Shown here piece by piece: positions 650 to 54,337 of a stretch of 64,000 bases of DNA. This DNA is from the human T2T-CHM13v2.0 reference genome, Homo sapiens. Location: NCBI RefSeq assembly GCF_009914755.1, contig NC_060933.1; one strand, written 5' to 3'. A program made the position numbers and the translations under genes. Position 1 is the first letter of the stretch, and every line of letters begins with the position of its first letter. The notes beneath the pieces are model-generated. The model searched no databases. It was not told the DNA's origin and worked only from the letters and a program-made list of their open reading frames with translations.

Positions 650-5300
<4,651 letters not shown>

Positions 5301-7078: not shown

Positions 7079-8201
7079 CTGCGTCACATTTTCACCGGGC
7101 CTCCTATGTAAACTCCCTGTAGACGGAGCCGAGTGTCTTAGTCATCGCGGAGCCCCAGGTGCTCAGCACGGCGCCAGGTACGTGGTGGGCGCCTAATATT
7201 TGGCAGAGGAATAAATGACGTCATGCTGCTGTGTGCCGGGCGCTGTACTCGGAAGTGGGTTGTTATTGGTATGGTAGTTGCAATGCGAGGCTGTCACATC
7301 CTTCACTTGTCGCATTGTAGTCCCGCTCCGGCTGTATTGTCATTTCCTGGACCCTCTGTGAGCGTGAGGACCCTTTCAGGCCTGTCCACGCCTGGCCCCG
7401 CAGCTCATGGCCCCTGGTCTCGTTCCAGCTCATTGTAGTTGCTCCGTCACTTATAGAATGAATGAATGAATGCAACACAGGGCAGTCTGTGTGCAAAGGA
7501 GTGCTTTGGGATCAAGCAGAGCATCACACCAGAAGTGACAGTTGAAAGGAGTCAGGCTTTAAAGACGAATAAAAGTTTGGTAGGAGAAAGAAAGCAACAT
7601 TCCGAGGAGAGGGAATAGCCTTGGTGCAAAGGCTAGGAGAGTATGTAGAGAGAGAGGAGATACTAATTTATGGCTGTAGTGTCAATCGGGTAGCTAGAGC
7701 TCAAGAGGTGAGGTCATCAGACAGTGTCTCTAGATCACAATGCCATGGTCCCTGCATGTGAACTTTATCGAGAGACAGTTCGGTGGCTGGTGAGGGACTG
7801 TAAGCCGGGGAGTGATAAGATCATATTTTGCATGTTAGAAGGAATTTTTTGGCCACAGTGTGAGACTGGAGTGAAGAACCCTGTACTTAGGCAGTTTCAG
7901 AAGGATAGAATGGAGAGGTTCTTAGGAAATAAAATCGCCAGAACTTGGCGATTGATGGGAGAAGTAAGGAGGAAGAGAAATTTGAAAGTCAAATATTAAA
8001 TTGGGCTTCTGAGTTGAGCAACTAGTGAGAAATGTGTGCCCTTTCATTAAGAAAGGGTAGGAGTTGTTAAATAGCTTTGTGACTGGGTCCCCTTGTGAAC
8101 CTTTTCTGATAACATTTTGTTTAGGAGGAGTATTCAATCTAAAGCAACTGTTTCCTTAACCCTTAAGTAGCTCCCTGGTTTTTGACTATAAAGAAAATTA
8201 T

Positions 8202-8500
8202 GGCTGGGCACAGTGGCTCACGCCTGTAATCCTGACACTTTGGGAGGCTGAGGTGGGTGGATCGCCTGAAGTCAGGAGTTCAAGACTAGCCTGGCCAACA
8301 TGGCGAAACCCCGTCTCTACTAAAAATACAAAAATTAGCCAGGCATGGTGGTGGGCGCCTATAATCCCAGCTACTCAAGAGGCTGAGGTAGGAGAATCAC
8401 TTGAACCCAGCCGGGGCAGAGGTTGCAGTGAGCCGAGATCGCACCACTTCACTCCAGCCTGGGCACCAAGAGCGAAACTCCGTCTCAAAAAAAAAAAGAA
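8202..8500 (+). mobile_element. AluS
   Basis: Full dimeric Alu with A tail, about 150 nt upstream of exon 2. Confidence 0.93.
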
Positions 8501-8779
8501 AGAAAGTTATCCTTTTAATTGAGCAGGGCTTTTCTAGGCCTTTGCTGGTATGTGTGTGGATATATTTCTCTGAACCAAACCAAGAACGATGTTTTTAGGA
8601 CTAACAACAGTTTTTTTACTTATTTAATGCCTTAATATTTCTTCTTGACAGTTTCTGCAGGACTGTAAACTGGATTCCTGGAACCTTTGATATTCCTGGC
8701 TGTGTATAGTGCCTGTTGGTGGACTGTACTGATACTCAACTAGAGTGTGAAGGGACTGGATTCCTGCCCCTGAGACACA

Positions 8780-9191
8780 ATGCAAGCTGTAGTGCCCTTG
8801 AACAAGATGACAGCCATCTCACCAGAACCTCAAACTCTGGCCTCGACTGAACAAAATGAGGTCCCAAGAGTGGTTACTTCTGGGGAACAAGAAGCTATTT
8901 TAAGAGGAAATGCTGCTGATGCAGAGTCTTTCAGACAGAGGTTTAGGTGGTTTTGTTACTCAGAAGTAGCTGGACCCAGGAAAGCTCTGAGTCAACTCTG
9001 GGAGCTCTGCAATCAGTGGCTGAGACCAGACATTCACACGAAAGAACAGATTTTAGAGCTTCTGGTGTTTGAGCAGTTCCTGACCATTTTGCCTGGGGAG
9101 ATCAGGATTTGGGTAAAGTCACAACATCCTGAGAGTAGTGAGGAAGTGGTGACCCTAATAGAAGATTTGACCCAGATGCTTGAAGAAAAAG
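8780..9191 (+). CDS. ZNF483: ZNF483 coding exon 2 (start codon, SCAN domain)
   Basis: ATG at 8780 with A at -3. Translation [10 protein letters not shown]...[57 protein letters not shown]...LEEK is a SCAN box. Donor AAAG|GTGAGA; candidate acceptors at 8651/8652 and 8660/8661. 412 nt, phase 1. Confidence 0.97.
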
Positions 9192-10246
9192 GTGAGATTT
9201 ATAGATGGAGGGAGGAAGCGGGAGACATTGCCTCAAAGTCCGAAAGTAAATTCCTCAAAAGAAGGCAATTTACTGCTAAAGAGGAGTCTGAGGTTAGAAG
9301 TTGGGACTGGGTTTGAATCAGCCCTGCCATTTACTGTGTGATTTTGGGCAAGCTGTGTAAACTCTCAGAATGTAAATATTTTTATCTGTTAAAAAGGGAT
9401 TTTATCTTTCTTGTAGTTTTCTTGTAAAGGTGAGACAAGATAGGATATAATATATGGTGGATGCTCAAGAAATAGTAATTTCTTTCCCATCCCCTTCAAG
9501 AACACAAGTTATCTGTGAAAGTGTTTGGAGTCACAGGCAAATCAACCAGCTCAGGCCCTAATGCCTAGTTCCATTGTGTGGACTAGCACGTTGCTAGAGG
9601 GTGGCTGTGAGTGTCTTTGCTGATGGAAATGTTTCTGCACTGTTTTGCAATTCAAGTACATGAAAAGCAGCTAGTGCAAATAAGGAACTGAATTTTTTAA
9701 ATCAAATTTAAAGTTTAAATAGCCACATGCGACTAGTAACTATTTTATAGTGCAGTTCCACAGCCTTAGGGCAGGAAAACCTGGATATATGTATGTAATT
9801 ACATATTATAAATACAAATGTATAAACTATAAACTGAATTACGGTGATATCATTATAAAATATTGATGTAAAGTCTTCTAGGGTGAGTAGTCCTTTCAGG
9901 GAATGTGGCTCGCCTTTTTTCTCAAATTTGTAGCTATTTATGTTCTCAAATATGATACAAATATTTGTATTTTGCAGTGTAATATGCTACAAATATTTGG
10001 AATATTTGTAGTATATTATTTACCATAGGGCTCCTGACATATGTGTGACAGTTTGTATTCTGGAAGAGTTCTGAGATAGGGAAATAAATAGTATTTACCT
10101 CCATACACTTAATTCGCCATCACGCAGCTAATTAGTGTATCTCAAATTTGGGTTTCCTGACTCCTCTGTGATTTGTCACTGCAGTGTCATGCTTCTACAA
10201 AATTAGGGCCTCTTTGTGGAGGCCCCTGCAATAAAGAATTGATTTC

Positions 10247-16921: not shown

Positions 16922-17948
<1,027 letters not shown>

Positions 17949-18040
17949 TTATCTTAAAAGAAAGAAGCAATGATCCATCTTGCTCTATTCCATCTTCTCA
18001 AACATTTATTGTAGTCAACTTATTGGCTGTTTCCAGTATA

Positions 18041-19938
<1,898 letters not shown>

Positions 19939-22762: not shown

Positions 22763-23031
22763 CTAAACCTCTTAAAAAAATTCAAAATGAGGGTGAGAAC
22801 TTGCATCTAACTATAAAGCACAAACTTTTCATCTTTCTCAATGTTTTTCTTAACCCATGTGTTTACATTGTTTCCCTATATTGCCTTTTCCTTTTCTATT
22901 TTACAAAGCTCTTTTTGAGAACCATCGAAACTATATTCCTTATAGTTATTAATGTGTTCCTATTTCAGACCCAAAATACAACAGCTTCCTTTCTTGCAAA
23001 CAGGAAATATTCTATTTCTTATATCTTTTAG

Positions 23032-24545
23032 ATGAATCAGCTTTAGATAAAATAATAGAAAGGTGCCTCAGGGATGATGATCATGGCTTGATGGAAGAAT
23101 CCCAGCAATATTGTGGCAGCTCAGAGGAGGATCACGGTAATCAGGGAAATTCAAAAGGAAGAGTCGCACAAAACAAAACTCTTGGGAGTGGCAGTAGGGG
23201 TAAGAAATTTGACCCAGATAAAAGCCCCTTTGGACATAATTTCAAAGAAACTTCAGACTTAATTAAACATCTGAGAGTCTACTTGAGGAAGAAATCTCGG
23301 AGGTATAATGAAAGCAAGAAACCCTTCAGTTTTCATTCAGACCTTGTTCTGAACCGCAAGGAGAAAACCGCCGGAGAAAAGTCACGGAAATCTAATGATG
23401 GTGGGAAAGTCCTGAGTCACTCTTCAGCTCTTACTGAACATCAGAAACGTCAGAAGATTCATTTGGGGGATAGGTCCCAAAAATGCAGTAAGTGTGGGAT
23501 AATCTTTATTAGAAGATCAACTCTTTCTAGGAGAAAAACCCCTATGTGTGAGAAATGTCGGAAAGATTCATGTCAAGAAGCAGCCTTAAATAAAGATGAG
23601 GGAAATGAGAGTGGAGAAAAAACTCATAAATGTAGTAAGTGTGGAAAAGCCTTTGGCTATAGCGCCTCACTCACCAAACATCGGAGAATTCACACTGGAG
23701 AAAAACCCTATATGTGTAATGAATGTGGAAAAGCTTTTAGTGATAGTTCATCGCTCACACCACATCATAGAACTCATAGTGGAGAGAAACCCTTCAAATG
23801 TGATGACTGTGGGAAAGGTTTCACCCTAAGTGCTCACCTCATTAAACATCAGAGAATTCATACTGGAGAAAAACCTTATAAATGTAAAGACTGTGGGAGA
23901 CCCTTTAGTGACAGTTCATCTCTTATTCAACATCAGCGAATTCATACTGGAGAAAAACCCTATACATGTAGCAATTGTGGAAAATCCTTCAGTCATAGCT
24001 CATCCCTTTCCAAACATCAGAGAATTCATACTGGAGAGAAACCCTATAAATGTGGCGAATGTGGAAAAGCCTTTAGGCAGAATTCATGCCTTACCCGGCA
24101 TCAGAGAATTCACACTGGAGAAAAACCATATTTGTGTAATGATTGCGGAATGACTTTTAGCCATTTTACGTCTGTGATTTATCATCAAAGACTTCATTCA
24201 GGAGAAAAACCCTACAAATGTAACCAGTGTGAGAAAGCCTTCCCAACCCATTCACTGCTAAGTCGTCATCAGAGAATTCATACTGGTGTAAAACCTTATA
24301 AATGTAAAGAATGTGGGAAGTCCTTCAGTCAGAGTTCATCTCTTAATGAGCACCACCGAATTCATACAGGAGAGAAACCCTATGAGTGTAACTATTGTGG
24401 TGCAACCTTTAGTCGAAGCTCAATCCTTGTAGAACACCTAAAAATTCATACCGGAAGGAGAGAATATGAATGTAACGAATGTGAGAAGACATTTAAAAGT
24501 AATTCAGGCCTCATTAGACATCGGGGATTTCACTCTGCAGAGTAA
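23032..24545 (+). CDS. ZNF483: ZNF483 exon 6 (spacer plus 11 C2H2 zinc fingers, stop TAA)
   Basis: Acceptor atatcttttAG|ATGAA. 11 intact CxxC-x12-HxxxH fingers with TGEKP-type linkers at 23625-24533. Spliced CDS is 2235 nt = 744 aa plus stop. Confidence 0.98.
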
Positions 24546-25137
24546 TCCTGGAACTACATTAAAGTGGGGGGAATTTAATTCAAATTGTCAGTTACTGAAA
24601 CCCTGGGATGTAAACTTACAGTATTGATCAGTAGCTGCAGCTTTCGTAAATTGGCAGTTAGGAAAAATATTCTTTTGCCCATTCATCCCTCTTCTTTTCA
24701 AGGATGGCAACGACTGGTAAACAGTAATTAGTTGGTAAAGTCACTGGAAAGGGAAGAATGCAAAATGATTCTGAGGCCAGACGAATTGGAAAAGCTCTTT
24801 TCTTCAGGGGATTTCTCTCTGATTTCTTCTACTACCATGTAGTGTGATGGAGAGAACTTGACTGCAGTCACATAACTTGGATTCTGTCCCAGTTTGCCAA
24901 CCAACTTGCTGTATACACCTTGGACAAGTCATTTGACCTTTCAGAATTTTATTTTCGTCACCAGCAGAATGAAGGGATGGGATTAATGATTTTTGCCTTT
25001 TTTGGTTTTTTAGTTTTTTATTGGTATCCTGATAATCTCTGAAGCTGTGGATATAAGTTATTTTTTTTTATTTGTCATTACTTTCAAGTTTCTCTAGTAA
25101 AAAATACAATACCACTATTCAGGATGCTGGACTTCTT

Positions 25138-25297
25138 TTCTTTTTTTTTTCTTTTTTTTTTTTCAATTTTTCTTTTTTGGGATGGAGTCTCACTATGTTG
25201 CCCAGACTGGTCTTGAACTCCTGGGCTCAAGTGATCCTTCCATCTCACTTTCCTGAGTAGCTGACATTACGGGTACACTCCATCAAGCCTGGTTCCT
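25138..25297 (-). mobile_element. FLAM-type Alu monomer in ZNF483 3' UTR
   Basis: Monomeric Alu with T tail, flanked by TSD AGGATGCTGGACTTCT (25121 and 25298). Confidence 0.85.
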
Positions 25298-25712
25298 AGG
25301 ATGCTGGACTTCTAGCTTAGTGAGAATGCAGTATACTTTTTGAAAACTTCGTGCAGGAATCCCTCAAATGCTGTAACTAGGAATGGGTCAGTGAAGTTCA
25401 AACGACTTTTCCTTGAGGGAGTATTTTAATCGGACAAGGGAACTCTTTTTCTTTTGGGCATTGGCCAACAGGACTGAGAAGCCAGAGAGCTTGCACCTGA
25501 GCCATCTCAGCCGTGAGAGTAACAGTCCTAGGAAAATAGATGGGGGCTGGGGGTAAGGAAATGTGCTGAAGACAGAGCTATTCTGGATGGATTTTGGTTT
25601 GCAAAAATTCTACTTTAAAACAATTTTGCCTGTAGCAAGTACATTTTTTTGCAATTGGAGTGTAAACATTCTGTGTGGCAACAGTTAAAAGCTGTTATAA
25701 CAATTTGCTTGG

Positions 25713-25715
25713 GTG

Positions 25716-25748
<33 letters not shown>
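25713..25748. repeat. (GT)n microsatellite
   Basis: GT run with one GC interruption. Confidence 0.95.
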
Positions 25749-28007
25749 ATACATTGTTGCCACTATCTAAAATTAGGGCATTTCATACTAAAAACAAAGC
25801 TTGTCTTAAAAAAAATTATAAGGGCTAACAACACTGGGCTTTTATTTATGTAAAGCACTCAGCTGGTCCTGGGTAGCAGCTGCCACCTTTTGATGGGGAA
25901 TCAACTTTCTGACTTAGCTAGTTCTCTCATGTATGTCACCTGACTTTCCCACTGTATGAATGTTCTATTATAACCCCTACCATTTGGAGAATAGATACCC
26001 TAAAATCTAAAGAGACTGCACTGATAGCAAGTAAAGTTCAGGGAATGAATGTAGAATTGATACAGAAAAAATTTTCAGTTAAGTTTTCTTTTGTGAAATT
26101 AGACCTCAGAGGAATGGAATATACGGGTATTGGTGGATTATTCCTTATAAATTTCATTGGTGGAGTCTGAATAATAATTTCCAACTGAAAAAGGAACTTA
26201 AGGCCCTGAATGAGTGAGGTTTTGGCTTCAGGTCATAGGGTTCTGGAGGAACCCCATGGACTCAACAGTGGTCTAGAAATAAGTTCCTAAAGTTGAAATT
26301 GTGGGCACCTCCTATAAAAAGAGAGCTAAACCAGAAAACTCTTCACTTATGGAAGTAAAGCGATCCTTAATGCTAATCTTAGACTCAGGAACATTTACTG
26401 TGACTAATGTATGTAGGTGTGAAATGCTACCTCTGGGAGAAGGTTTTTGGTGCCTCCCCAGCCCCAAGCCTGCAGTTTAAATATTGCCGTGTGATAAATT
26501 GGTCCGCATAGTTATTGCTAAGCAGACCAACGAATCACATCCTAGCCATGAAAGGAATGTTTATTATGAGAATCATTCATAATGGTTTTAAGTTTTTTTC
26601 TGAAAAGACAGAAAACTTGTTGTAAGTTTTGTTTTCTGAAAAATATAATTTATAGAAAGTTGAAGAAATAACGTAAAAGTCTTCAGAAGAGGCTTGTTCC
26701 AAGATGATTACTCTTAGACTCCCTAACATTCATAACAATGTTTTATCCCAGTATCCATTGGGAATCTGGAGTATAAACTTTTTTTTTAAAGGAATTTATT
26801 GAGGTACAAATTACATATCATTAAAACCATTTCAAGTGTACAATTCAGTGAGTTTTAGTAAATATGCTGAGTTGTGCAACCATTACCATAATCCATTTTT
26901 TAGAACATCATCCCAGCAAGATCCGTTATTCCAGTTTACAGTTAATCTCCCGTCCAACCTCTAATCCCAGGCACCCACTACTCAGTCGACTTTGTGTCTC
27001 TAGAGTTGTCTTTTTCTGTACATTTTATGTTATATGTGATCTTTCTGTGTTTTTTTCATTAATGTGTTTTAAGTTCATCCATGTTGTAACATACTAGTAC
27101 TTTATTCCTTTTTATCATAAATAATATTACATTATGTGGATGCTTCGTGCATTCACTAGTTGAAGAACATTTGAGGTTTTTCCAGTTTTTGCCTGTTAGG
27201 AATAATGCTGCTTTGAACATTGGTATGCAGGTGTTTTGAACGTTAGTGTACAAGTCTTTGTGTGGACATGTTTTCATTTTTCTTAGGCAGATGCCTGAGG
27301 GGAGTTGCTAGGTCATACGGTAAATTTTCATTTAACTTTTTTAGGAAACTGCCAAATTGTTTTCCAAAGTGACCGCATTATTTTACATTCTGACTAGTAA
27401 TGTGTGGGGCTTCCCATTTCTCTACAGTCTTGCCAGTCATTGTTGTCTGTTTTTTAAAAATTATGCCCATCCTAGCGTTTGAAATGATATTCCTTTGTGG
27501 TTTTAACTTTGATTTTCCTGATGGCGAATAATGTCAAAGCATCTTTTATGTGCTCTTCAGCCATTCATGTATCTTAGTGAAATGTTTATTCAGATTTTTT
27601 GTCCATTTAAAATTGGAGTTTGCTGATACTGTGTTGTAGTCCTTTTTATTCTGGATATAAGTCCTTTATCCAATATGAACTTTCTAAATACCATGTACTA
27701 GCTACAGAGAGCAGCCCAAACTCTGTTGGATAATATTTATCAAAGTCTTGATTTCAGTAGTTAAGTCTGTATAATTGCCTGCAGGACATTCAGTCTGGCC
27801 CATCACCCAAATATTTAAATTCACTTTTGGATTAAGTCAGATTATCAAAAGGCTTTAAACGTCTTTTGATTCATTATAGGATTGCTTTTATGAAGAGCAC
27901 TGTGACACATTTTACTTTAAAATGAAGTCCTTGCTTTAAATAATGTTTCCTCTTAATGAGCGTGTATAAATTTTTTTCATGTCACAGGACAAGGCAAGGT
28001 TTTGGTC

Positions 28008-28013
28008 AATAAA
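28008..28013 (+). terminator. ZNF483: Candidate ZNF483 polyadenylation signal
   Basis: First canonical AATAAA I can find after the stop codon, followed by U-rich sequence. Further AATAAA at 30546, 35080 and 36827; ATTAAA at 24558. Confidence 0.4.
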
Positions 28014-30399
28014 GTCATTTTATTTATTTTAGAATTATTTTTTAATGTAGTAAGATACATATAGCTTAAAATGAACCATTTAAACACTTTTTGGTTATAC
28101 AGCTCAATAGCATTTAGATAGATGCACATTTTGTGCAGTCATCACCACTATCCATCTCCAGAACTTTTTCATCATCCCAAACTGAAACTCTGTACTCCTT
28201 AAACAATAACTCCCCATTTTCTCCTCCTCAGGCTCCTGGTAACCACTGTTCTACTTCCTGTCTGTACAAATTTGACTGTTCTAATTACTTGGTATGAATG
28301 GAATCATACAATATTTGCCCTGTTGTGTTTGGCTTATTCCACTTAGCATTATGTTTTCAAGGTTCGGCCGTGTTGTAGCACATATCAGAATTTAATTCCT
28401 TTTTAAGGCTGAATAATATTCCATTTTACTTGTATACCACATTTTGTTTATCCTTTTATCTGCCAGTGGACATTTAAGTTGTTTGCACCATTTTGGCTAT
28501 CAAGAATAACATTGCTATAATCAGTGGTGCTTTCTGTTCTTTTAAGTATATGCCTAGAAATAGAATTGCTGGATCTTATGATGATTCTATATTTAACTTC
28601 TTGAGGAAGTGCAACTACACTATTTTAAATTCCCACCAGCTATGTACAAGGGTTTCAGTATCCCCGCCCTTGCTAACACTTATTTTCTATTTCTTTTTTA
28701 TAATAGACATCCTAATGGGTTTGAAGTGGCATCTTATTCTAGTTTTGTTTTGCATTTCCCTAGTGATTAGTGATGTTAACTGTCTTTTTATGTGCTTATT
28801 GACCATTTGTATCTCTTCTTTGGAGAAATGTTTATTGAAGTCCTTTGCCCATTTTTTAATTGGTTTTGTTGGCGTTGTTGTTTAGTTGTAGAAGTTCTTA
28901 ATATATCCAGAATATATAAAGAACTTTTCAGATAAATGATTTGCAAATACTTTCTTCCATTCTGTGTGGGTTGCCTTTTCATTCTATTCCTAATGCCCTT
29001 TGAAAGAAGGTTTTAATTTTGGTGAAGTTCAATTTTTCTATTTTTTCTTTTGTTTCCTGTGCTTTTCTGGTCATACCCAAGAAACCATGGCCAAATCCAA
29101 TGTCATGAAGCTTTTCTCCTATTCTAGGAGTTTTATAGTTTCAGGTCTTATGTTTAAGTCTTTTAACCATTTTGATTTTTATGTATGGTAAAGGGTCCAT
29201 CTTCATTCTTTTGCATGCGAATATCCAGTTTTCCCAGCCCCATCTGTTGAAGAGACTATCCTTTCCACATCATGTATTCTTTGCACTCTTGTCAAAGATC
29301 ATTTGACCATATACATGCATGTTTATTTCTGGCTGTCTGCTCTGTTTCTTTGGTCTATATGTTTGTCTTTATGCCAGTACCATGCTATTTTGATTACTCC
29401 AGTAATGTTTTGTAATCAGGATTACACTACGTTTCCTGTAGTATGTTTTTGAAATGAGGAAGTGTGAGGCCTCCAGCTTTGTTCTTTCCCAAATTGTTTT
29501 GGCTATTTGGGGGTCCTTAAGATTTCAAATGAATTTTAGGATGGTTTGTTTGTTTTTGTGGAAAATGGCATGAAGATTGGGCTTGCATTGAATTTGTAGA
29601 TCGCTTTGGGTAATGTGGACATACTAACAATAACAAACATTACAGTCTGTGAACCCCAGGTGTCTTTCCATGTATTTGTGCCGTCTTTAATTTTTTCAGC
29701 AATGTGTTACAGTTGTCATTGTACAAGTCTTTTGCCTCCTTGGTCAAGTTTATTCTTGAGTATTTTATGTTTTTGATGCTGTTGTAAATGGGTCTTTGTT
29801 AGTGAAGCATAACTGAGTTTTGAGTGTTGATTTTGTATCTTGCAACTTTGCTGAATTTGTTTATTAGTCATAATAGTTTCTTGTGAAATTTTTGGGATTT
29901 TTAAATATAAGATTATGGCATCTGCAAATAGATAATTTTTCCTTCTTCCTAATTTGGATGGCTTTAACTTGCCAATGGCTCTAGCTAGGACTTCCAGTAC
30001 TGTGTTGAATACAAGTAGCAAAAGCAGGCATCTGTGCCTTTTCCTGAAATGCTTTCTATTTTATATCATTCCGTATGATGTTAGCTGTGGTCTTTTCATA
30101 TTTGACCTTTATTATGTTAAGGTAATTTCCTTTTATTGATAAATTCTTGTTTGAAGGACAGTTTTGCTGTATATAGAATTCTCAGTTGACAGTTTTTTTT
30201 TTTTCTTTCTGCATTAAGAGTATAACAACGCCACAGCCTTCTGGCTTCCAAGGTTTTTGATGAGCAATCAACAGTCTCACTGAGGATTTCTTTTATGTGA
30301 TGATTTGCTTCTCTCTTGATGCTTTTGAGATTCTCCTTTTGTCTTTGGATTTCAGCAGCTTGATTATAACTTGTCTTGGTGTCTCTGTGGGGTGAGGGT

Positions 30400-31195
30400 A
30401 GGAGTCAATTGCAGTGCTTGTTGCCATAGTTCAGAACCTGCACCACAAAGACCCTTCCAGTTCTGTAGAGTGGTTTATTGCTTTATTATCAGTGCAATAG
30501 AGAGTCACTGAGTCACTGGAGGTTCTCTGTGTGTGTGAGTGTATAAATAAAGATTTAATTTTGTTTTGCTCTTTTGTTTTCCCCTCGGAATAGTTTATCA
30601 GATGAGGAATTTCTTGATCACTGGGGAGAAATATCTTACAATTCTGAAAACACACTGTCAAAATGCTTTTCATAAAATGTAGCACATTTTAGGGTTTCTC
30701 CCTTGTGTGGAAATGTTAGTGTCTATAAAGGTCTGAACTAAGAAAGCTTCTCTCAAGCCACAACACATGTGAGGTTCCTCTGCTGAATGAATCTTTTGGT
30801 GCTCAGTAAGTTGTGATTTCCAAGCAAAGTGTTTTTCACCCTGAGAAATTGGTGAGGTATCTTTCTCTCAGAGTCTTTTTTATGAAGTCTGATGTTGAGA
30901 GGTTCTTCCAGGTTGGAGTTCTCAGGTCTGTCTCCCTTGTAGATTATCAGAGTGGGTCGATAATCTACAAGCTTTGCTAAACCTACCTGTAGCTCTTCTG
31001 GGGCAGCGGTCGTGGTGGTGGTGGCAGCGGCAGCAGGGTTCCCCATTGATTTTCTAAATGTTTGTAGTCCTTTTGTAAAGTGGACCCTTGCCTTCTAAGG
31101 TAATGGTGAATGATACATATTCCCTTCATTTTTCTGCTTTGAAGCTTCAATCTTCTTCATTTTCTCTTTTGATCTGTCAACACAATCAGAACATT
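30400..31195 (-). pseudogene. Decayed C2H2 zinc-finger exon relic
   Basis: - strand translation with frameshifts and stops: spacer ...[18 protein letters not shown]...[15 protein letters not shown], then [50 protein letters not shown]. Non-L1 sequence flanked on both sides by L1 ORF1. Confidence 0.65.
31147..31173 (-). CDS. PTGR1: PTGR1 alternative terminal exon (IKRENEED*, 301-aa isoform)
   Basis: Acceptor tgttctgattgtgttgacAG|ATC is phase 0, like the canonical last exon. ATC AAA AGA GAA AAT GAA GAA GAT TGA. Agrees with my recollection of PTGR1 isoform 2. Confidence 0.75.
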   Translation of the reverse strand: MKRENEED

Positions 31196-32405
31196 TAGCT
31201 CTTTGAGCATCTTTAAGGCAGTTGCTTTAAAGTCTGTCTAGTGAGTCAATGTTTGGTCTTCCTCATGTCCATTTTTTGTTGGTTTATTTTGTGCCTTTGA
31301 ATGGTCAATACTTGTTTCTTTGTATGCATCGTGATTGTTTTTGTTGACAGCTAGACATTTGAATTTTATAATGTGGCAACTCTGGAAATAAGATTATTCC
31401 TTTTTCCCCAGGGTTTATTTTTTGTTGTTGTTTTTTGTGTTGTGTGTTTTTTGTTTTCGTTTTTGTTTTACTGTCATAGGCTGTCTCTGTGCTAGGGATC
31501 AGCCTGTGTTGAATGCCTAAAGTTGTCTCAATTCTTTACAGAGCCTGCGTTTTTCCCTGGGCGGGAGCAATGGCTTTCTGAATTCACCTAGATACACAGT
31601 TTTTTGAATGTCCAGAAAAACAGGTTTCATCCCTTTTTTCTCCTGGAAGCCACTTTAGCCAGTTGGGGGTTGGGAGAATGGTAGCTTGCTTCTTTGTCTG
31701 CTCTTTCTCTGTGATCAGAAGTAGATATCTGCAATCAGAACCCTGATATTTGGAGGAAGTGGCTATTATTGTCCACCCTGGCTGCAGCAAGCTGACCCAG
31801 AAATGTGGGGTTGTGTCTCCACAGCTGCCTGCCATGGAGTGGGTGGGGATGGGTAGCTGCTACTTCACTGAAGGCTGAAATCCACCAATGTTAACTGCAA
31901 TTTACCACTCAGAATTTCCCCTAGAAGCTACAAGTGTTCAGATGGACTCATGTGCTCCCAAAATAATCACTTTAGGAACTTTCTGCCGATGTAATTATTA
32001 TCTAGGTGGAGAGGTGGATTCCTGGGCCACTCTATCCATGTCTTTGATTTTTCCTGCTTTCTTGAAGATTTCTTCAACTTTATCTTCCAGCTCTACTATT
32101 AAATGTTGTGAATGTTTTTATCTCTGCTGTCATATTTTTATTTCCAAGTGCATTATCTGATTCTTTCTTCCTTTTTTCTAATTGGTTTTGTTTCATAGGT
32201 GAAATATTTTTTCTCTGAGCATGTTAATTATAGTGTCTTTCTGTGTTATTCTGCTCCCTGCATTATCCCTGTTTCCTTTGAGTTGTTTTCACCTGTTTTC
32301 TGTCTCTCACACTGGAGGCTTTCCTGAAGCCTCTGATGATCTTTGACTATTTATATTTAAGAGCAGGGCTCTAAAAAGCTGATTGGAAGGTGTTTTAGGT
32401 ACTTC

Positions 32406-35040
<2,635 letters not shown>

Positions 35041-35848
35041 ATGCAATGCAGTGGTTAAAGTGAATTGTAGTTCTATCAAAATAAAGATACGTTTAGTGGA
35101 AAAGTATTTGACTCTGCTTCTGTTTTTAAAATTGTGAAATGTGGCACTGTGTGGATTTCCATTTCTCACCAGCCTCAAGTGACTACCATATTAAGTTGCT
35201 CTACGCAATCCTAGCCACAGAGAACCCAACAAATTGGAGTAGCTTAACTGAATGAAAGTTTATTCCCCAGGGGTCTTTCCAGCATTTTGTTGCTTTCCCA
35301 TATTTTGTAGTCATGCTGTGTGGAGCACATAACTTCCAACGTCCCAGAGGCAGGGAAAGGAAGAACTGGAGCATTGTGCAGTGTTTTTAAGCACTAGCCT
35401 AGAAACAGCTGAGAACCACAGGTTTCAAACTCGGTGCCAAGGTTTCCCATTCCACTCTAGAGATCTCACACAGGCTTCCCAGGATATTTTAAAATCTGGA
35501 GATTATCACAACTACAACTATTGACATCACAAACTACTACTATTATGTTATTGGAACTAACTACTTAGCAAATGGAATTGATAGTTAATGGGTTTTTTGT
35601 TTGTTTGCCTGGGAGCATTGTGGAAAAATGGCCATGGTACTACAGATCCTGTAACTAAGAAAGTCAACCTCTGTCTTAGAAGTCACTTCTACTCTTCCGT
35701 TGCCCAGAGATCAATCATATAACCCTAACCTAACTTAAAGGGAGGCTTGAAATACAGCTTTCCCCTCATTGTGGTGAGCACATAGATTATTTCTACCACA
35801 GTCTGTTCTTTCGGTCACCAAACTCTTTCTTCCCACACTTAATGCATA

Positions 35849-36192
35849 CAGTAGCCCCCTTATCCATGGGGGATATGCTCCAAGACCTCGAGTGGATGCC
35901 TGCAACCTCAGATAGTACCAAACCCTGTATGTTCTATGTTTTGTCAGTCTGATAACCCAAGAAGGCTACTAAGTGACTAACAGACAGGTAGTGTAGATGA
36001 CATGGATATGCTGGACAAAGGGATAATTTGTGTCCTAGGAGGCACGGAGCAGGATGGCAAGAGGTTTCATCAGGCTACTCAGAACATACTGGAATTTTTT
36101 ATTTCTGGAATTTTCTATTTAAAATTTTGGGGCCAAGATTGAGGGTAACTGAAACCACGGAAAGTGAAACTTTGAATAAGGGGAGACCACTG
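35849..36192. mobile_element. MER44A (Tigger7-derived) with TA TSDs
   Basis: ta|CAGTAGCCCCCTTATCC ... GAATAAGGGGAGACCACTG|ta. Confidence 0.85.
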
Positions 36193-36851
36193 TATTTTAC
36201 CCAAGGGAGACAATCCAAAGTCTAATCTGCTCAGGGTCTACAACTGAAGTCCAGGGTCTTTGAGTTAGATGCTTTGAGTGTGACCTACTTTTTGCCTTTG
36301 GGACCCTAAATGTCAGTGCCTGTTAATTTTTCTTTGAGAAGTGTAATTTCTCCAGAGGTCTGCTCTTTAATTTCCCCAGAGAAGGATGTTCTAGTCAGCA
36401 TGGGGGATATAAGCCTGGCTACCATTACTGGCGAGCAGGCAGAAGCACGCCACATGGTGGGATAGGAGTTGGAGTTCATCCCCTTTTATTCAGACTTCCA
36501 CTTAGTATCCTGTTTTTAGTCTTCTATCTTATTTCCATCCTCCTCCAGGCCCAGGGTACCCAAGTTAATAGCCTATCAAGTTCTATTTGGCAAAAGATAA
36601 TGCCTCTCATTTCCTGTGGGAATTGTGGTGAATTGATAATCACCTGGCAAAATAAGGTAGGAGTGGCATTTTGAGCTCAAACTGTTCTGTGCACATTTTC
36701 AAACTCTTTAGCCTCTGATTTTCTCCCTACTTCCAGAAAACCTGATGCCTCCACCTCCTAAATCTTTCCATATTTCATTAGTACCCCATCAGAAGGCCGT
36801 TGTGCTATTTTCTACTGTGCTCTGTTAATAAAATTTTTCCTCTGAACAATA

Positions 36852-44240: not shown

Positions 44241-44373
44241 AAATTTTCACACTTCAAAGCCATTATTTTCTACCACAACTCAGAAGAAGCTGTAGTGAAC
44301 AGTGAGGTGACTGGTTGTTGTTGACTTTGAAACTTCCATCCTCCATCACTAATTACATACCACTTAAATGTAT

Positions 44374-44379
44374 TTTATT
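44374..44379 (-). terminator. PTGR1: PTGR1 polyadenylation signal AATAAA
   Basis: TTTATT on + strand about 130 nt past the PTGR1 stop codon. Confidence 0.75.
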
Positions 44380-44506
44380 AAGTAGCTCAAACTCATTATG
44401 AGTACTATTTCTTAAGACATTTAAGGTAGTATACATTTTTGCTAAATGGTGAAAAACAAATTAACTAATCATCTAAATGGCCTCCAGATTCCATGTGTCC
44501 TCTTTT

Positions 44507-44647
<141 letters not shown>

Positions 44648-45190: not shown

Positions 45191-45661
45191 GCGATTAAGC
45201 AATTTCTAAATAAGATGCATAGTAAAGTTTAATAACACAATGATCTCAGAGGAGGTACAAATAGACAGAGAAAAGAGCACCCTTCATTACCTCTGGCCCC
45301 TGAAGAGGCAGGTCCTATTCAGGAAATATAAATGGCAGGACAGTCTAATAATCTGTCTCCCCTTTAAGCCAAGGTTCTTTCAACATGTGTTTAACCTTTA
45401 TCTGGGAGTGTGGGAAGGAAGGGTTCATGTTAGTGAGAAAGGGTCTTCATTTCTCTTTCTCCTACAAGGCACAGCCTACTAATGGGAACTAATTTACATT
45501 TTCAGATTTTTTTAAGGGGTCTTATATAGAGACCTGAGTTACCTGATACAAGTTTTTCGCTAATGTATTCCAGTGATGGCTTAGCACTCTTCATGGATTT
45601 ATAGACAAGATTATTTGCTTGAAGTCAGTCAATTACAAAGTAGGGAAGCTGAAATTTAAAC

Positions 45662-48870
<3,209 letters not shown>

Positions 48871-50881: not shown

Positions 50882-54337
<3,456 letters not shown>

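What the first reader, a model, noticed from the sequence alone, without database searches (positions are those of the whole stretch)
30400..31195. Fossil zinc-finger exon inside an L1, whose splice acceptor is used by PTGR1
Seen: about 800 nt of non-L1 sequence replaces the middle of an L1 ORF1 on the - strand. It begins with an acceptor (tgttctgattgtgttgacAG, 31174-31195). One frame then reads SKEKMKKIEASKQKNEG...PLP*KARVHF...[18 protein letters not shown]...[14 protein letters not shown] with a single stop. After a frameshift come [27 protein letters not shown]..., SSDLYRH*HFH-TREKP-* and a third finger start (about 30660-30850), then two tandem AATAAA (30482-30487, 30474-30479). Established: acceptor, spacer, C2H2 array and polyA signal is the layout of a KRAB/SCAN-ZNF terminal exon. 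Inference: this is the remnant of a lost ZNF gene or transduced ZNF segment lying tail-to-tail with ZNF483, and the PTGR1 IKRENEED exon uses its acceptor in a different frame. I do not recall this relic being annotated.
Basis: partly seen in the sequence, partly recalled or inferred. Interest (0 to 1): 0.8.

Follow-up and report, generated by a model that had tools for sequence, protein, structure and literature searches.

The report
ZNF449-derived exon fossil inside L1
An 811-base decayed copy of the last exon of an X-linked zinc-finger gene sits inside an old L1 retrotransposon between ZNF483 and PTGR1, so it is a captured gene fragment and not the remains of a gene that once lived there.

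Summary
Window 31193-30383 (- strand, 811 nt) is non-L1 sequence that replaces about 450 nt of the ORF1 region of one old L1. It carries a decayed spacer, two C2H2 fingers, part of a third, and two AATAAA.

The segment has one relative in this genome: the terminal exon of a chrX gene with a SCAN domain and seven fingers. By recall this is ZNF449. The two share 81.7% of 437 aligned nt, with 19 indel events. They are colinear from the exon start to a 47-nt match 2.1 kb past the stop codon.

Both L1 flanks belong to one element. They are colinear and have equal divergence (K2P 0.127 and 0.128). The fossil is therefore nested in the L1 and cannot be an in-situ lost neighbour of ZNF483. No SCAN relic lies upstream in the window.

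The segment has no poly(A) tail. It probably keeps a few intron bases and keeps sequence past an AATAAA, so it is not a canonical processed pseudogene. I favour capture during L1 reverse transcription by two template jumps (about 0.45). Capture during later break repair is the close rival.

The AG used by PTGR1 matches bases 7-8 of the parental exon, not the parental acceptor. IKRENEED* is in the ancestral frame. Interest is modest.

The parts
31194..31613 (-). Upstream L1 flank (end of 5' region and N-terminal part of ORF1, ...LKMLKELN)
   Evidence: 40 L1 copies elsewhere match query 138-557, which is window 31613-31194. None passes 31194; other copies continue ...ctaaa|GGAAGATGTGGAGAAAG, with no GT donor there.
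31184..31193 (-). 10-nt junction stretch (tgttctgatt), possibly the tail of the parental intron
   Evidence: With the 6 preceding bases, which overlap L1's CTAAA, 9 of 16 positions match the chrX intron end, counted by eye. This is too short to be significant, so it is an inference.
30689..31183 (-). Fossil of the parental exon's first 471 nt: spacer, finger 1, finger 2 and the start of a third finger
   Evidence: 357 of 437 aligned nt identical (81.7%), K2P 0.217, 19 gap events, two in-frame stops. BLASTP E = 4e-10 and 2e-14 at orthologous positions.
31174..31175 (-). AG used as the 3' splice site of the annotated PTGR1 alternative exon; homologous to bases 7-8 of the parental exon
   Evidence: Supplied RefSeq table (exon 31096-31173) and the alignment.
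31096..31173 (-). PTGR1 alternative terminal exon; phase-0 reading is IKRENEED*
   Evidence: Supplied RefSeq table. The preceding intron is phase 0, because the canonical last coding part 44507-44617 is 111 nt. The TGA arises at a 4-nt insertion relative to chrX.
31004..31035 (-).
   Evidence: alignment: absent from the chrX exon.
30635..30711 (-). Third-finger remnant that also matches the last (7th) finger and the stop-codon region of the parent; fingers 3-6 are missing
   Evidence: 30711-30655 matches chrX-cat 22773-22828 at 75.9% of 58 (E = 8e-6 in the small search). 30649-30635 matches 22875-22890, 14 of 16, which is weak (E = 8).
30474..30487 (-). Two overlapping-spaced AATAAA hexamers
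   Evidence: No annotated transcript end lies nearby. Homology to a particular chrX AATAAA is not established (one search gives only 10-nt matches at E = 8).
30388..30434 (-). 47-nt match to chrX sequence 2.1 kb downstream of the parental stop codon; 3' end of the captured segment
   Evidence: 39 of 47 identical; z = 13.7, 0 of 300 shuffles, while against the 70 nt preceding the boundary in 11 L1 copies z runs from -1.2 to 2.3; the only such hit in the whole window, on the same strand and colinear.
30150..30382 (-). Downstream L1 flank (C-terminal part of ORF1)
   Evidence: 39 L1 copies match query 99-331. Tnp_22_dsRBD E = 8.6e-5 (22.9 bits, cutoff 22.2) and Transposase_22 profile 53-87 of 98, E = 0.028.
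27400..30137 (-). Rest of the same L1 (ORF2 remnants and 3' end) after a second internal discontinuity at 30150/30137
   Evidence: 5411 candidate repeats match from query 13 (window 30137) on. One search shows the ORFs. Their assignment to ORF2 and the 3' limit near 27400 come from recall of L1 protein sequence and were not measured.

Best explanation
**What it is.** Window 31193-30383 (- strand) is a single-copy, decayed copy of the 3'-terminal exon region of the chrX SCAN plus seven-finger gene. By recall of its place this is ZNF449. The architecture matches the published description of ZNF449.

**What the copy spans.** It runs from about 10 nt before the exon start, through the spacer and fingers 1-2, to a finger 3/7 remnant. 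Scraps of the 3' UTR follow, then two AATAAA. It ends at a stretch that lies 2.1 kb past the stop codon on chrX.

**Where it sits.** It lies in sense orientation inside one old L1, where it replaces about 450 nt of ORF1. It is therefore no older than that L1 and was never a gene at this locus. I hold this identity and nesting at about 0.9.

**Preferred mechanism (inferred, about 0.45; this is the confidence given for the whole statement).** While the L1 RNA was being reverse-transcribed at this site, the reverse transcriptase left the L1 template in mid-ORF1. It copied the 3' end of an unspliced or uncleaved ZNF449 transcript back to just upstream of the last exon. It then returned to the L1 RNA about 450 nt further 5'. 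The result is a tripartite L1 / pre-mRNA / L1 chimera.

**Later history.** Since then the insert has decayed neutrally. It has no zinc-finger function today.

**Present role.** Its only visible role is to give an annotated PTGR1 alternative transcript a 3' splice site (an AG internal to the old exon) and a 78-nt last exon. If that exon is joined directly to the exon ending at 51477, it adds IKRENEED*. That peptide is a fossil of the parental IGIENEED.
For: **Identity**
- The genome-wide DNA search finds one relative only, C23:133686011-133686457, E = 3e-48.
- That locus is an open 329-codon frame with 7 zf-C2H2 (Pfam E = 2.5e-41). A SCAN exon lies 13 kb upstream on the same strand (PDB ZNF24 SCAN E = 2.6e-32).
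- A spacer protein search ranks the fossil (63% identity, E = 1.5e-6) far above the next relatives: two chrX loci at 37% and one chr16 locus.

**Colinear chain to chrX**
- Exon nt 1-471, the finger-7 region, and the 47-nt match 2.1 kb past the stop.

**Nesting in one L1**
- The L1 boundaries are sharp at 31194 and 30382 (0 of 40 and 0 of 39 L1 matches cross them).
- Both flanks occur together on one strand in 15 of 22 other L1 loci. They lie 425-477 nt apart in 9 of those 15.
- Terminal-branch K2P is 0.127 and 0.128 for the two flanks.

**Age compatible with co-insertion**
- Fossil against parent gives K2P 0.217. Differences are nearly flat over codon positions (0.142, 0.194, 0.214). This is as expected if about 0.12-0.13 is neutral decay of the fossil and the rest is change in the living gene.

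**Not a canonical retrocopy**
- There is no A-tail at 30383, and the L1 copies have no GT donor at the 5' junction.
- The copy reaches past both of its own AATAAA.
- It is in the same orientation as the L1, as continuous cDNA synthesis requires.
- The same L1 has a second internal jump at 30150/30137.

**Precedent**
- L1 chimeras with mRNA fragments are reported (bioRxiv 10.1101/2025.02.02.635956, abstract and passages).
- Double template switches giving tripartite chimeras are reported (PMC2104539, abstract).
Against: - No cross-species data could be consulted. That the L1 and the insert arrived at the same time is not shown. The divergence argument rests on an assumed rate for the living gene.
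- The L1 branch lengths come from the 11 best-matching copies per flank and from a gap-tolerant alignment. They are probably underestimates.
- Published L1 chimeras mostly place the foreign RNA 5' of a truncated L1. A return to the same L1 RNA was not seen in the abstracts and passages I read.
- The start of the copy within about 10 nt of an exon boundary is an unexplained coincidence under simple template switching.
- About 2 kb of the parental 3' UTR and fingers 3-6 are missing. Window 30634-30435 has no significant match to chrX apart from a CA-rich stretch. Extra deletions or jumps must therefore be assumed.
- The ZNF449 poly(A) site is not known to me. 'Past the poly(A) signal' therefore holds for the fossil's own AATAAA, not demonstrably for the parent's used site.
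- The gene name and its chrX place are recalled, not given by a tool.
Confidence: 0.45

Rival explanations
1. Post-insertional capture. The L1 was already resident. A double-strand break in its ORF1 was repaired with loss of about 450 nt, and the gap was filled with a fragment copied from the ZNF449 locus or from its unspliced transcript or cDNA. This would be a templated insertion or microhomology-mediated repair.
For: - It has the same structural facts as the best explanation: no poly(A), no target-site duplication around the insert, and replacement rather than simple interruption.
- By-eye reading suggests short shared bases at both junctions: CTA at the 5' side, and CCCA(A/C)AG at the 3' side between chrX ...CCCAAG and L1 ...CAAAGAG.
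- It needs no return of a reverse transcriptase to the same RNA.
Against: - The sense orientation relative to the L1 would be a 1-in-2 coincidence.
- The fossil looks about as old as the L1 rather than clearly younger.
- The start near the exon boundary is equally unexplained.
- The microhomologies are short and were read by eye.
Confidence: 0.35
2. Ordinary 5'-truncated processed pseudogene of ZNF449 mRNA. It was inserted by L1 machinery into the resident L1 with a target-site deletion, and later lost its poly(A) tail and much of its interior.
For: - Retrocopies of mRNAs in L1-rich DNA are common (established knowledge).
- The fossil holds only last-exon sequence, as a 5'-truncated retrocopy would.
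Against: - There is no A-rich tail at the 3' junction, and about 90 nt follow the second AATAAA before the L1 resumes.
- The 3' end matches chrX sequence lying about 75-120 nt after one chrX AATAAA and about 210-250 nt before the next. It therefore does not end at an obvious cleavage site.
- Truncation within about 10 nt of the exon start would be a chance event. The 10 nt before the exon do not look like L1.
Confidence: 0.1
3. One reading: the terminal exon of a SCAN/KRAB-ZNF gene that once lay tail-to-tail with ZNF483 and was lost, with L1 sequence arriving later.
For: - ZNF483 next door is a SCAN-ZNF (supplied table).
- The fossil has the full layout of a terminal exon, with spacer, fingers and AATAAA.
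Against: - The two L1 flanks are colinear parts of one element of equal divergence, with about 450 nt missing exactly where the fossil sits. Two independent L1 insertions would not give this.
- The fossil's closest relative is the chrX gene, not ZNF483. The spacer has no match in ZNF483, and only generic finger similarity is seen.
- tblastn of 219 chrX ORFs against the window finds the SCAN exon only in ZNF483 itself.
Confidence: 0.03

Closest known systems
ZNF449 (ZSCAN19), X-linked SCAN-domain gene with seven C2H2 fingers
   Same: The spacer and fingers 1-2 align position for position: 81.7% of aligned nt, and 93 of 156 codons read alike. The order matches: spacer, fingers, stop region, then 3' sequence.
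   Different: - Only the last exon is present.
- It has 19 indel events, two in-frame stops and lost Cys ligands.
- Fingers 3-6 and most of the 3' UTR are missing.
- It is embedded in an L1 on chromosome 9.
- The name of the chrX gene is recalled, not given by a tool.
L1 chimeric retrocopies formed by RNA recombination or template switching (U6/L1, mRNA/L1 and tripartite chimeras)
   Same: Foreign cellular RNA sequence is fused in sense orientation to L1 sequence without a poly(A) tract at the junction. Double switches are reported (PMC2104539, abstract; bioRxiv 10.1101/2025.02.02.635956, abstract and passages).
   Different: - Here the foreign piece is internal, with L1 on both sides.
- It is a last exon with probable intron and post-AATAAA sequence.
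- In the preprint passages read, most of the 17 mRNA/L1 chimeras carry first exons 5' of the L1.
Processed pseudogenes (L1-mediated retrocopies of mRNA)
   Same: A dead copy of an expressed gene on another chromosome, decaying neutrally.
   Different: There is no poly(A) tail and no recognisable target-site duplication around the insert. It probably holds a few intron bases. It replaces target sequence.
Exonisation of transposon or pseudogene sequence as an alternative terminal exon
   Same: A host gene (PTGR1) splices into non-genic repeat-embedded sequence 13 kb beyond its normal 3' end (supplied table).
   Different: The splice site lies in a captured gene fragment, not in the transposon proper. 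The reading frame happens to be the ancestral one.

Membership tests
C2H2 zinc-finger (Pfam zf-C2H2) coding sequence | A recognisable C-x2-4-C ... H-x3-5-H unit scoring against the family profile | tested here: not met
   no zf-C2H2 match at E <= 10 for any of 6 single-frame pieces. The Cys pairs of fingers 1 and 2 are lost (QGEKHF, CCGLRE). Finger homology is shown only through the chrX gene (E = 4e-10).
Derivative (pseudogene fragment) of the chrX SCAN / seven-finger gene (ZNF449 by recall) | Closest relative in the genome, with colinear homology beyond the generic finger repeat | tested here: met
   the only DNA match, and the best spacer match (63% against 37% for the next loci); a colinear chain including unique spacer and 3' sequence.
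Processed pseudogene | Spliced mRNA copy ending in a poly(A) tract and flanked by target-site duplications | tested here: not met
   no A-tract at 30383. The flanks are non-adjacent L1 positions about 450 nt apart, so there is no duplication. Splicing cannot be judged because only one exon is present.
In-situ relic of a multi-exon SCAN-ZNF gene | Other exons (SCAN, linker) upstream on the same strand, and a position not nested in a younger or equal-aged element | tested here: not met
   the chrX SCAN ORF hits only ZNF483's own SCAN exon (8957-9184, + strand); nested in one L1.
L1 chimeric insertion (template switch or RNA recombination) | Foreign segment and L1 arrive in one event (same presence and absence across species) within one set of L1 integration hallmarks | not testable with these tools
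   No other mammalian genomes or whole-genome alignments were available. There is only indirect support: sense orientation, similar divergence and a second internal L1 jump.
LINE-1 element (host) | ORF1 domains and many dispersed copies | tested here: met
   Tnp_22_dsRBD at 22.9 bits against a cutoff of 22.2; 756, 486 and 5411 first-look candidates in the genome. The subfamily was not named because no repeat library was available.

The most novel reading that the evidence does not exclude
The insert is a cDNA of a splicing or 3'-processing intermediate of ZNF449 pre-mRNA. The L1 reverse transcriptase jumped from L1 RNA onto an uncleaved transcript downstream of its poly(A) signal. It copied the whole last exon and was stopped at or near the branch point of the last intron; the chrX CTA about 14 nt before the 3' splice site lines up with the junction. 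It then fell back onto the L1 RNA. This would be a fossil showing that L1 reverse transcription samples lariat-exon intermediates in the nucleus, and an internal L1 / pre-mRNA / L1 tripartite chimera.
Probability: 0.08. Interest if true: 0.5.

Novelty: new member of a known kind. Interest (0 to 1): 0.25.

Why it matters
- It removes a tempting false lead. No lost zinc-finger gene lies beside ZNF483.
- It adds one clearly dissected, apparently unannotated example of a host-gene fragment embedded inside an L1. The junctions do not fit standard retrocopy formation. Cases like this constrain how L1 reverse transcription or break repair shuffles exons.
- It explains the origin of an annotated PTGR1 alternative last exon. 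If the eight codons are translated, they are a leftover of a ZNF449 spacer.
- None of this changes what is known about PTGR1 or ZNF483 function.

Tried and rejected
- **Pfam on single-frame pieces.** It found no zinc-finger call. This is uninformative because the ligand residues have decayed.
- **L1 splice donor joined to the ZNF exon (L1 read-through or trans-splicing).** Rejected. 11 other L1 copies were examined at that boundary. The 8 aligned to it continue ...ctaaa followed by G, A or C, with no GT. In addition, 10 non-L1 nt precede the exon.
- **The 47-nt 3' match as L1 sequence shared by chance.** Rejected. Neither the window stretch nor the chrX stretch resembles the corresponding L1 region (z from -1.2 to 2.3 against 11 copies). 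L1 copies resemble each other there (z 7-18 in 10 of 12 pairs shown).
- **The chrX 3' UTR as younger repeats, to explain the missing 2 kb.** Not supported. The 2421 nt after the stop are unique in the genome apart from a CA-rich stretch.
- **Relics of fingers 3-7, the 3' UTR or upstream exons elsewhere in the window.** None was found.
- **Assigning the fossil's AATAAA to a particular chrX AATAAA.** Only 10-nt matches at E = 8 were found, so this is left open.
- **An L1 fragment in the last intron of the chrX gene (chrX-cat 17600-19303) as a possible bridge.** It is antisense to the gene and only 64-66% identical to the window's L1, so I did not pursue it.
- **Literature.**
  - 'ZNF449' + 'pseudogene': 6 papers, 5 listed, none about this by title or abstract start.
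  - 'ZNF483' + 'PTGR1': 8 papers, all association or expression studies by title.
  - The L1-chimera preprint has 0 occurrences of ZNF449, ZNF483 or PTGR1 in its main text. Its supplements could not be seen and may list this locus.

Full report
**1. What is there**

On the - strand, window 31193-30383 (811 nt) is not L1, while the sequence on both sides is.

- With window 31750-31150 as query, 40 other L1 copies match up to query 557 (window 31194) and none goes further. 33 of 40 end within 10 nt of that point.
- With 30480-30080 as query, 39 copies match from query 99 (window 30382) and none starts earlier. 28 of 39 start within 6 nt.
- The downstream flank carries L1 ORF1 domains: Tnp_22_dsRBD at E = 8.6e-5, just above the curated cutoff, and Transposase_22 profile 53-87 of 98 at E = 0.028.

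**2. One L1, not two**

Of 22 other L1 loci fetched, 15 contain both flanks, always on one strand. The L1 sequence between the flanks is 425-477 nt in 9 of the 15, 317 nt in one, and 695-1099 nt in five, presumably with later insertions.

Terminal-branch K2P distances were estimated from pairwise distances to 11 copies per flank. They are 0.127 for the 5' flank and 0.128 for the 3' flank, with mean pairwise distances of 0.229 and 0.239.

The 811 nt therefore replace about 450 nt of the ORF1 region of a single old element. The copies used were the best matches and the alignment tolerates gaps, so the absolute ages are probably underestimates. By recall of published L1 divergence scales, this is the range of L1PB to middle L1MA families. 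No repeat library was available to name the subfamily.

**3. Where the insert comes from**

A search of the whole assembly with the 796-nt finding gives one other place, C23:133686011-133686457, E = 3e-48.

- That place is an open frame of 329 codons preceded by a ...tctcag acceptor. It encodes a spacer and seven C2H2 fingers (Pfam zf-C2H2 E = 2.5e-41, 7 stretches).
- A SCAN-domain exon lies 13 kb upstream on the same strand. It matches the solved ZNF24 SCAN domain at E = 2.6e-32.
- That this chrX gene is ZNF449 rests on that match of architecture and on my recall of its map position. No tool named it.

A protein search with the 99-aa spacer ranks the window's fossil second after the gene itself (63% identity over residues 50-99, E = 1.5e-6). 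Next come two chrX loci at 37% and one chr16 locus at E = 0.46. By recall these are ZNF75-family exons. The fossil therefore belongs to the lineage of this particular gene, not to ZNF483. ZNF483 shares only generic finger similarity.

**4. Anatomy of the fossil**

The homologue of the parental exon start (GTTTTGAGATC...) is GTGTTGACAGATC... at 31183.

- From there to 30689, 437 nt align with 357 identities (81.7%), K2P 0.217 and 19 gap events.
- One of those gaps is a 32-nt GCY/ACC insertion (31035-31004).
- Read in the parental frame, 93 of 156 codons give the same residue and two are stops.
- The Cys ligands of fingers 1 and 2 are gone, which explains why Pfam sees no finger.

Further 3' the picture is patchier.

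- The third finger remnant (30711-30655) matches the seventh parental finger (75.9% of 58) as well as the third.
- A short stretch, 30649-30635, resembles the stop-codon region (14 of 16, weak).
- Fingers 3-6 are thus missing.
- Of the 2.1-kb parental 3' sequence, only a CA-rich patch and a 47-nt stretch (30434-30388, 39 of 47 identical) can be recognised.

That 47-nt match is real. It scores z = 13.7 with 0 of 300 shuffles. It is the only such hit in the whole window, and it is colinear and on the same strand. It is also not L1: against the corresponding part of 11 L1 copies, z runs from -1.2 to 2.3.

The chrX 3' sequence is itself unique in the genome. The missing 2 kb are therefore deletions or skipped template in the fossil, not later insertions in the parent.

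**5. What kind of copy it is**

It is not a canonical processed pseudogene.

- No A-tract precedes the L1 at 30383.
- About 90 nt follow the second AATAAA.
- The flanking L1 positions are 450 nt apart, so there is no target-site duplication.
- The 10 nt before the exon start (31193-31184) are neither L1 nor obviously anything else. Together with the overlapping CTA they match the end of the parental intron at 9 of 16 positions by eye, which is suggestive only.
- The L1 copies have no GT at the 5' junction, so splicing from an L1 donor is excluded.

It is not an in-situ gene relic either. It is nested in one L1, and no SCAN or other upstream exon relic exists on the - strand of the window: tblastn of 219 chrX ORFs finds only ZNF483's own SCAN exon.

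**6. Age**

Differences from the parent are almost flat across codon positions (0.142, 0.194, 0.214), which indicates mainly neutral decay. Suppose the fossil's own branch is about 0.12-0.13, as for the L1. The living gene would then have contributed about 0.09, mostly at third positions. That is plausible, but it cannot be checked without an orthologue. The fossil is thus about as old as its host L1.

**7. Mechanism**

Two routes fit.

(a) **Two template jumps during reverse transcription of the L1.** The path would be L1 RNA, then the 3' end of an unspliced or uncleaved ZNF449 transcript, then back to L1 RNA.
- In favour: the sense orientation, the similar age, the replacement of L1 sequence, and a second internal jump in the same L1 at 30150/30137.
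- Precedent: L1/mRNA chimeras and double switches are reported (bioRxiv 10.1101/2025.02.02.635956, abstract and passages; PMC2104539, abstract).

(b) **Repair of a break in the resident L1**, with a fragment copied from the ZNF449 locus or its RNA.

I put (a) at about 0.45 and (b) at about 0.35. An ordinary retrocopy that later lost its tail gets about 0.10, and the lost-gene reading about 0.03. The remainder is unassigned. Presence and absence across mammals would decide between (a) and (b).

**8. PTGR1**

The supplied table lists an alternative PTGR1 exon at 31096-31173.

- Its AG (31175-31174) aligns with bases 7-8 inside the parental exon (GAG|ATC on chrX, CAG|ATC here, after a 2-nt insertion). 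The position of the parental intron's AG now reads TG. PTGR1 therefore uses an internal AG and not the fossil's acceptor.
- The canonical last coding part (44507-44617) is 111 nt, so the preceding intron is phase 0.
- A direct join to 31173 reads ATC AAA AGA GAA AAT GAA GAA GAT TGA, which is IKRENEED*.
- This is the ancestral frame (parental IGIENEED, 6 of 8 identical). The TGA arises at a 4-nt insertion.
- If the transcript instead passes through the other alternative exon, 45544-45648, it meets a stop after 7 codons and the fossil exon is untranslated. The table does not say which.
- The exon's annotated end (31096) has no AATAAA or ATTAAA within the exon. The transcript model may therefore be incomplete.

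**9. Verdict**

It is wrong on three points: the origin (a lost neighbour gene), the acceptor, and the frame.

It is an unannotated but ordinary kind of object: a gene fragment captured in a retrotransposon and later partly exonised. Its junction structure is somewhat unusual.

Noticed in passing
window 30137-30150 (- strand): The same L1 has a second internal discontinuity. ORF1-type matches stop at 30150. A different, far more abundant L1 segment starts at 30137 (5411 candidates). By recall of L1 protein sequence, this joins the end of ORF1 to the middle of the ORF2 reverse-transcriptase region, so roughly 2 kb are missing. The size was not measured.
   Followed up: partly
window 45544-45648 (- strand): The other alternative PTGR1 exon has good splice signals (tttcag|c and cag|gtaact). 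In phase 0 it carries a stop after 7 codons (LPYFVID*). It abuts a masked repeat at 45649-45996.
   Followed up: partly
window 44353-44379 (- strand): The 'exon 44353-44617' of another PTGR1 transcript ends 21 nt after an AATAAA and is followed by TT, not GT. It is therefore a proximal poly(A) site of the normal last exon, not a spliced exon.
   Followed up: yes
L033 / L034 (G000:C23:133461785-133462084 + and 133562065-133562364 -): Two chrX loci about 100 kb apart, in opposite orientation, match the ZNF449-type spacer with identical scores (37% identity, 1 TAG each). They look like an inverted duplication carrying a related zinc-finger terminal exon, ZNF75-type by recall. A weaker relative lies on chr16 (L035).
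   Followed up: no
L005 about 3990-4240 (chrX-cat 23990-24240): The 3' sequence of the chrX gene holds a tandem duplication of about 110 nt, and each unit ends in a CA-rich run. The fossil has one CA-rich patch at the colinear place (30561-30524).
   Followed up: no
L004 about 7600-9300 (chrX-cat 17600-19303): An old L1 fragment lies antisense in the last intron of the chrX gene, 2.7-4.4 kb upstream of its terminal exon. It is 64-66% identical to the window's L1.
   Followed up: no
window 23032-36790 (+ strand): The whole L1, the fossil inside it and the PTGR1 alternative exon all lie antisense within the annotated 13.8-kb last exon (long 3' UTR) of ZNF483. Transcripts of the two genes would therefore overlap here (supplied table).
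   Followed up: no
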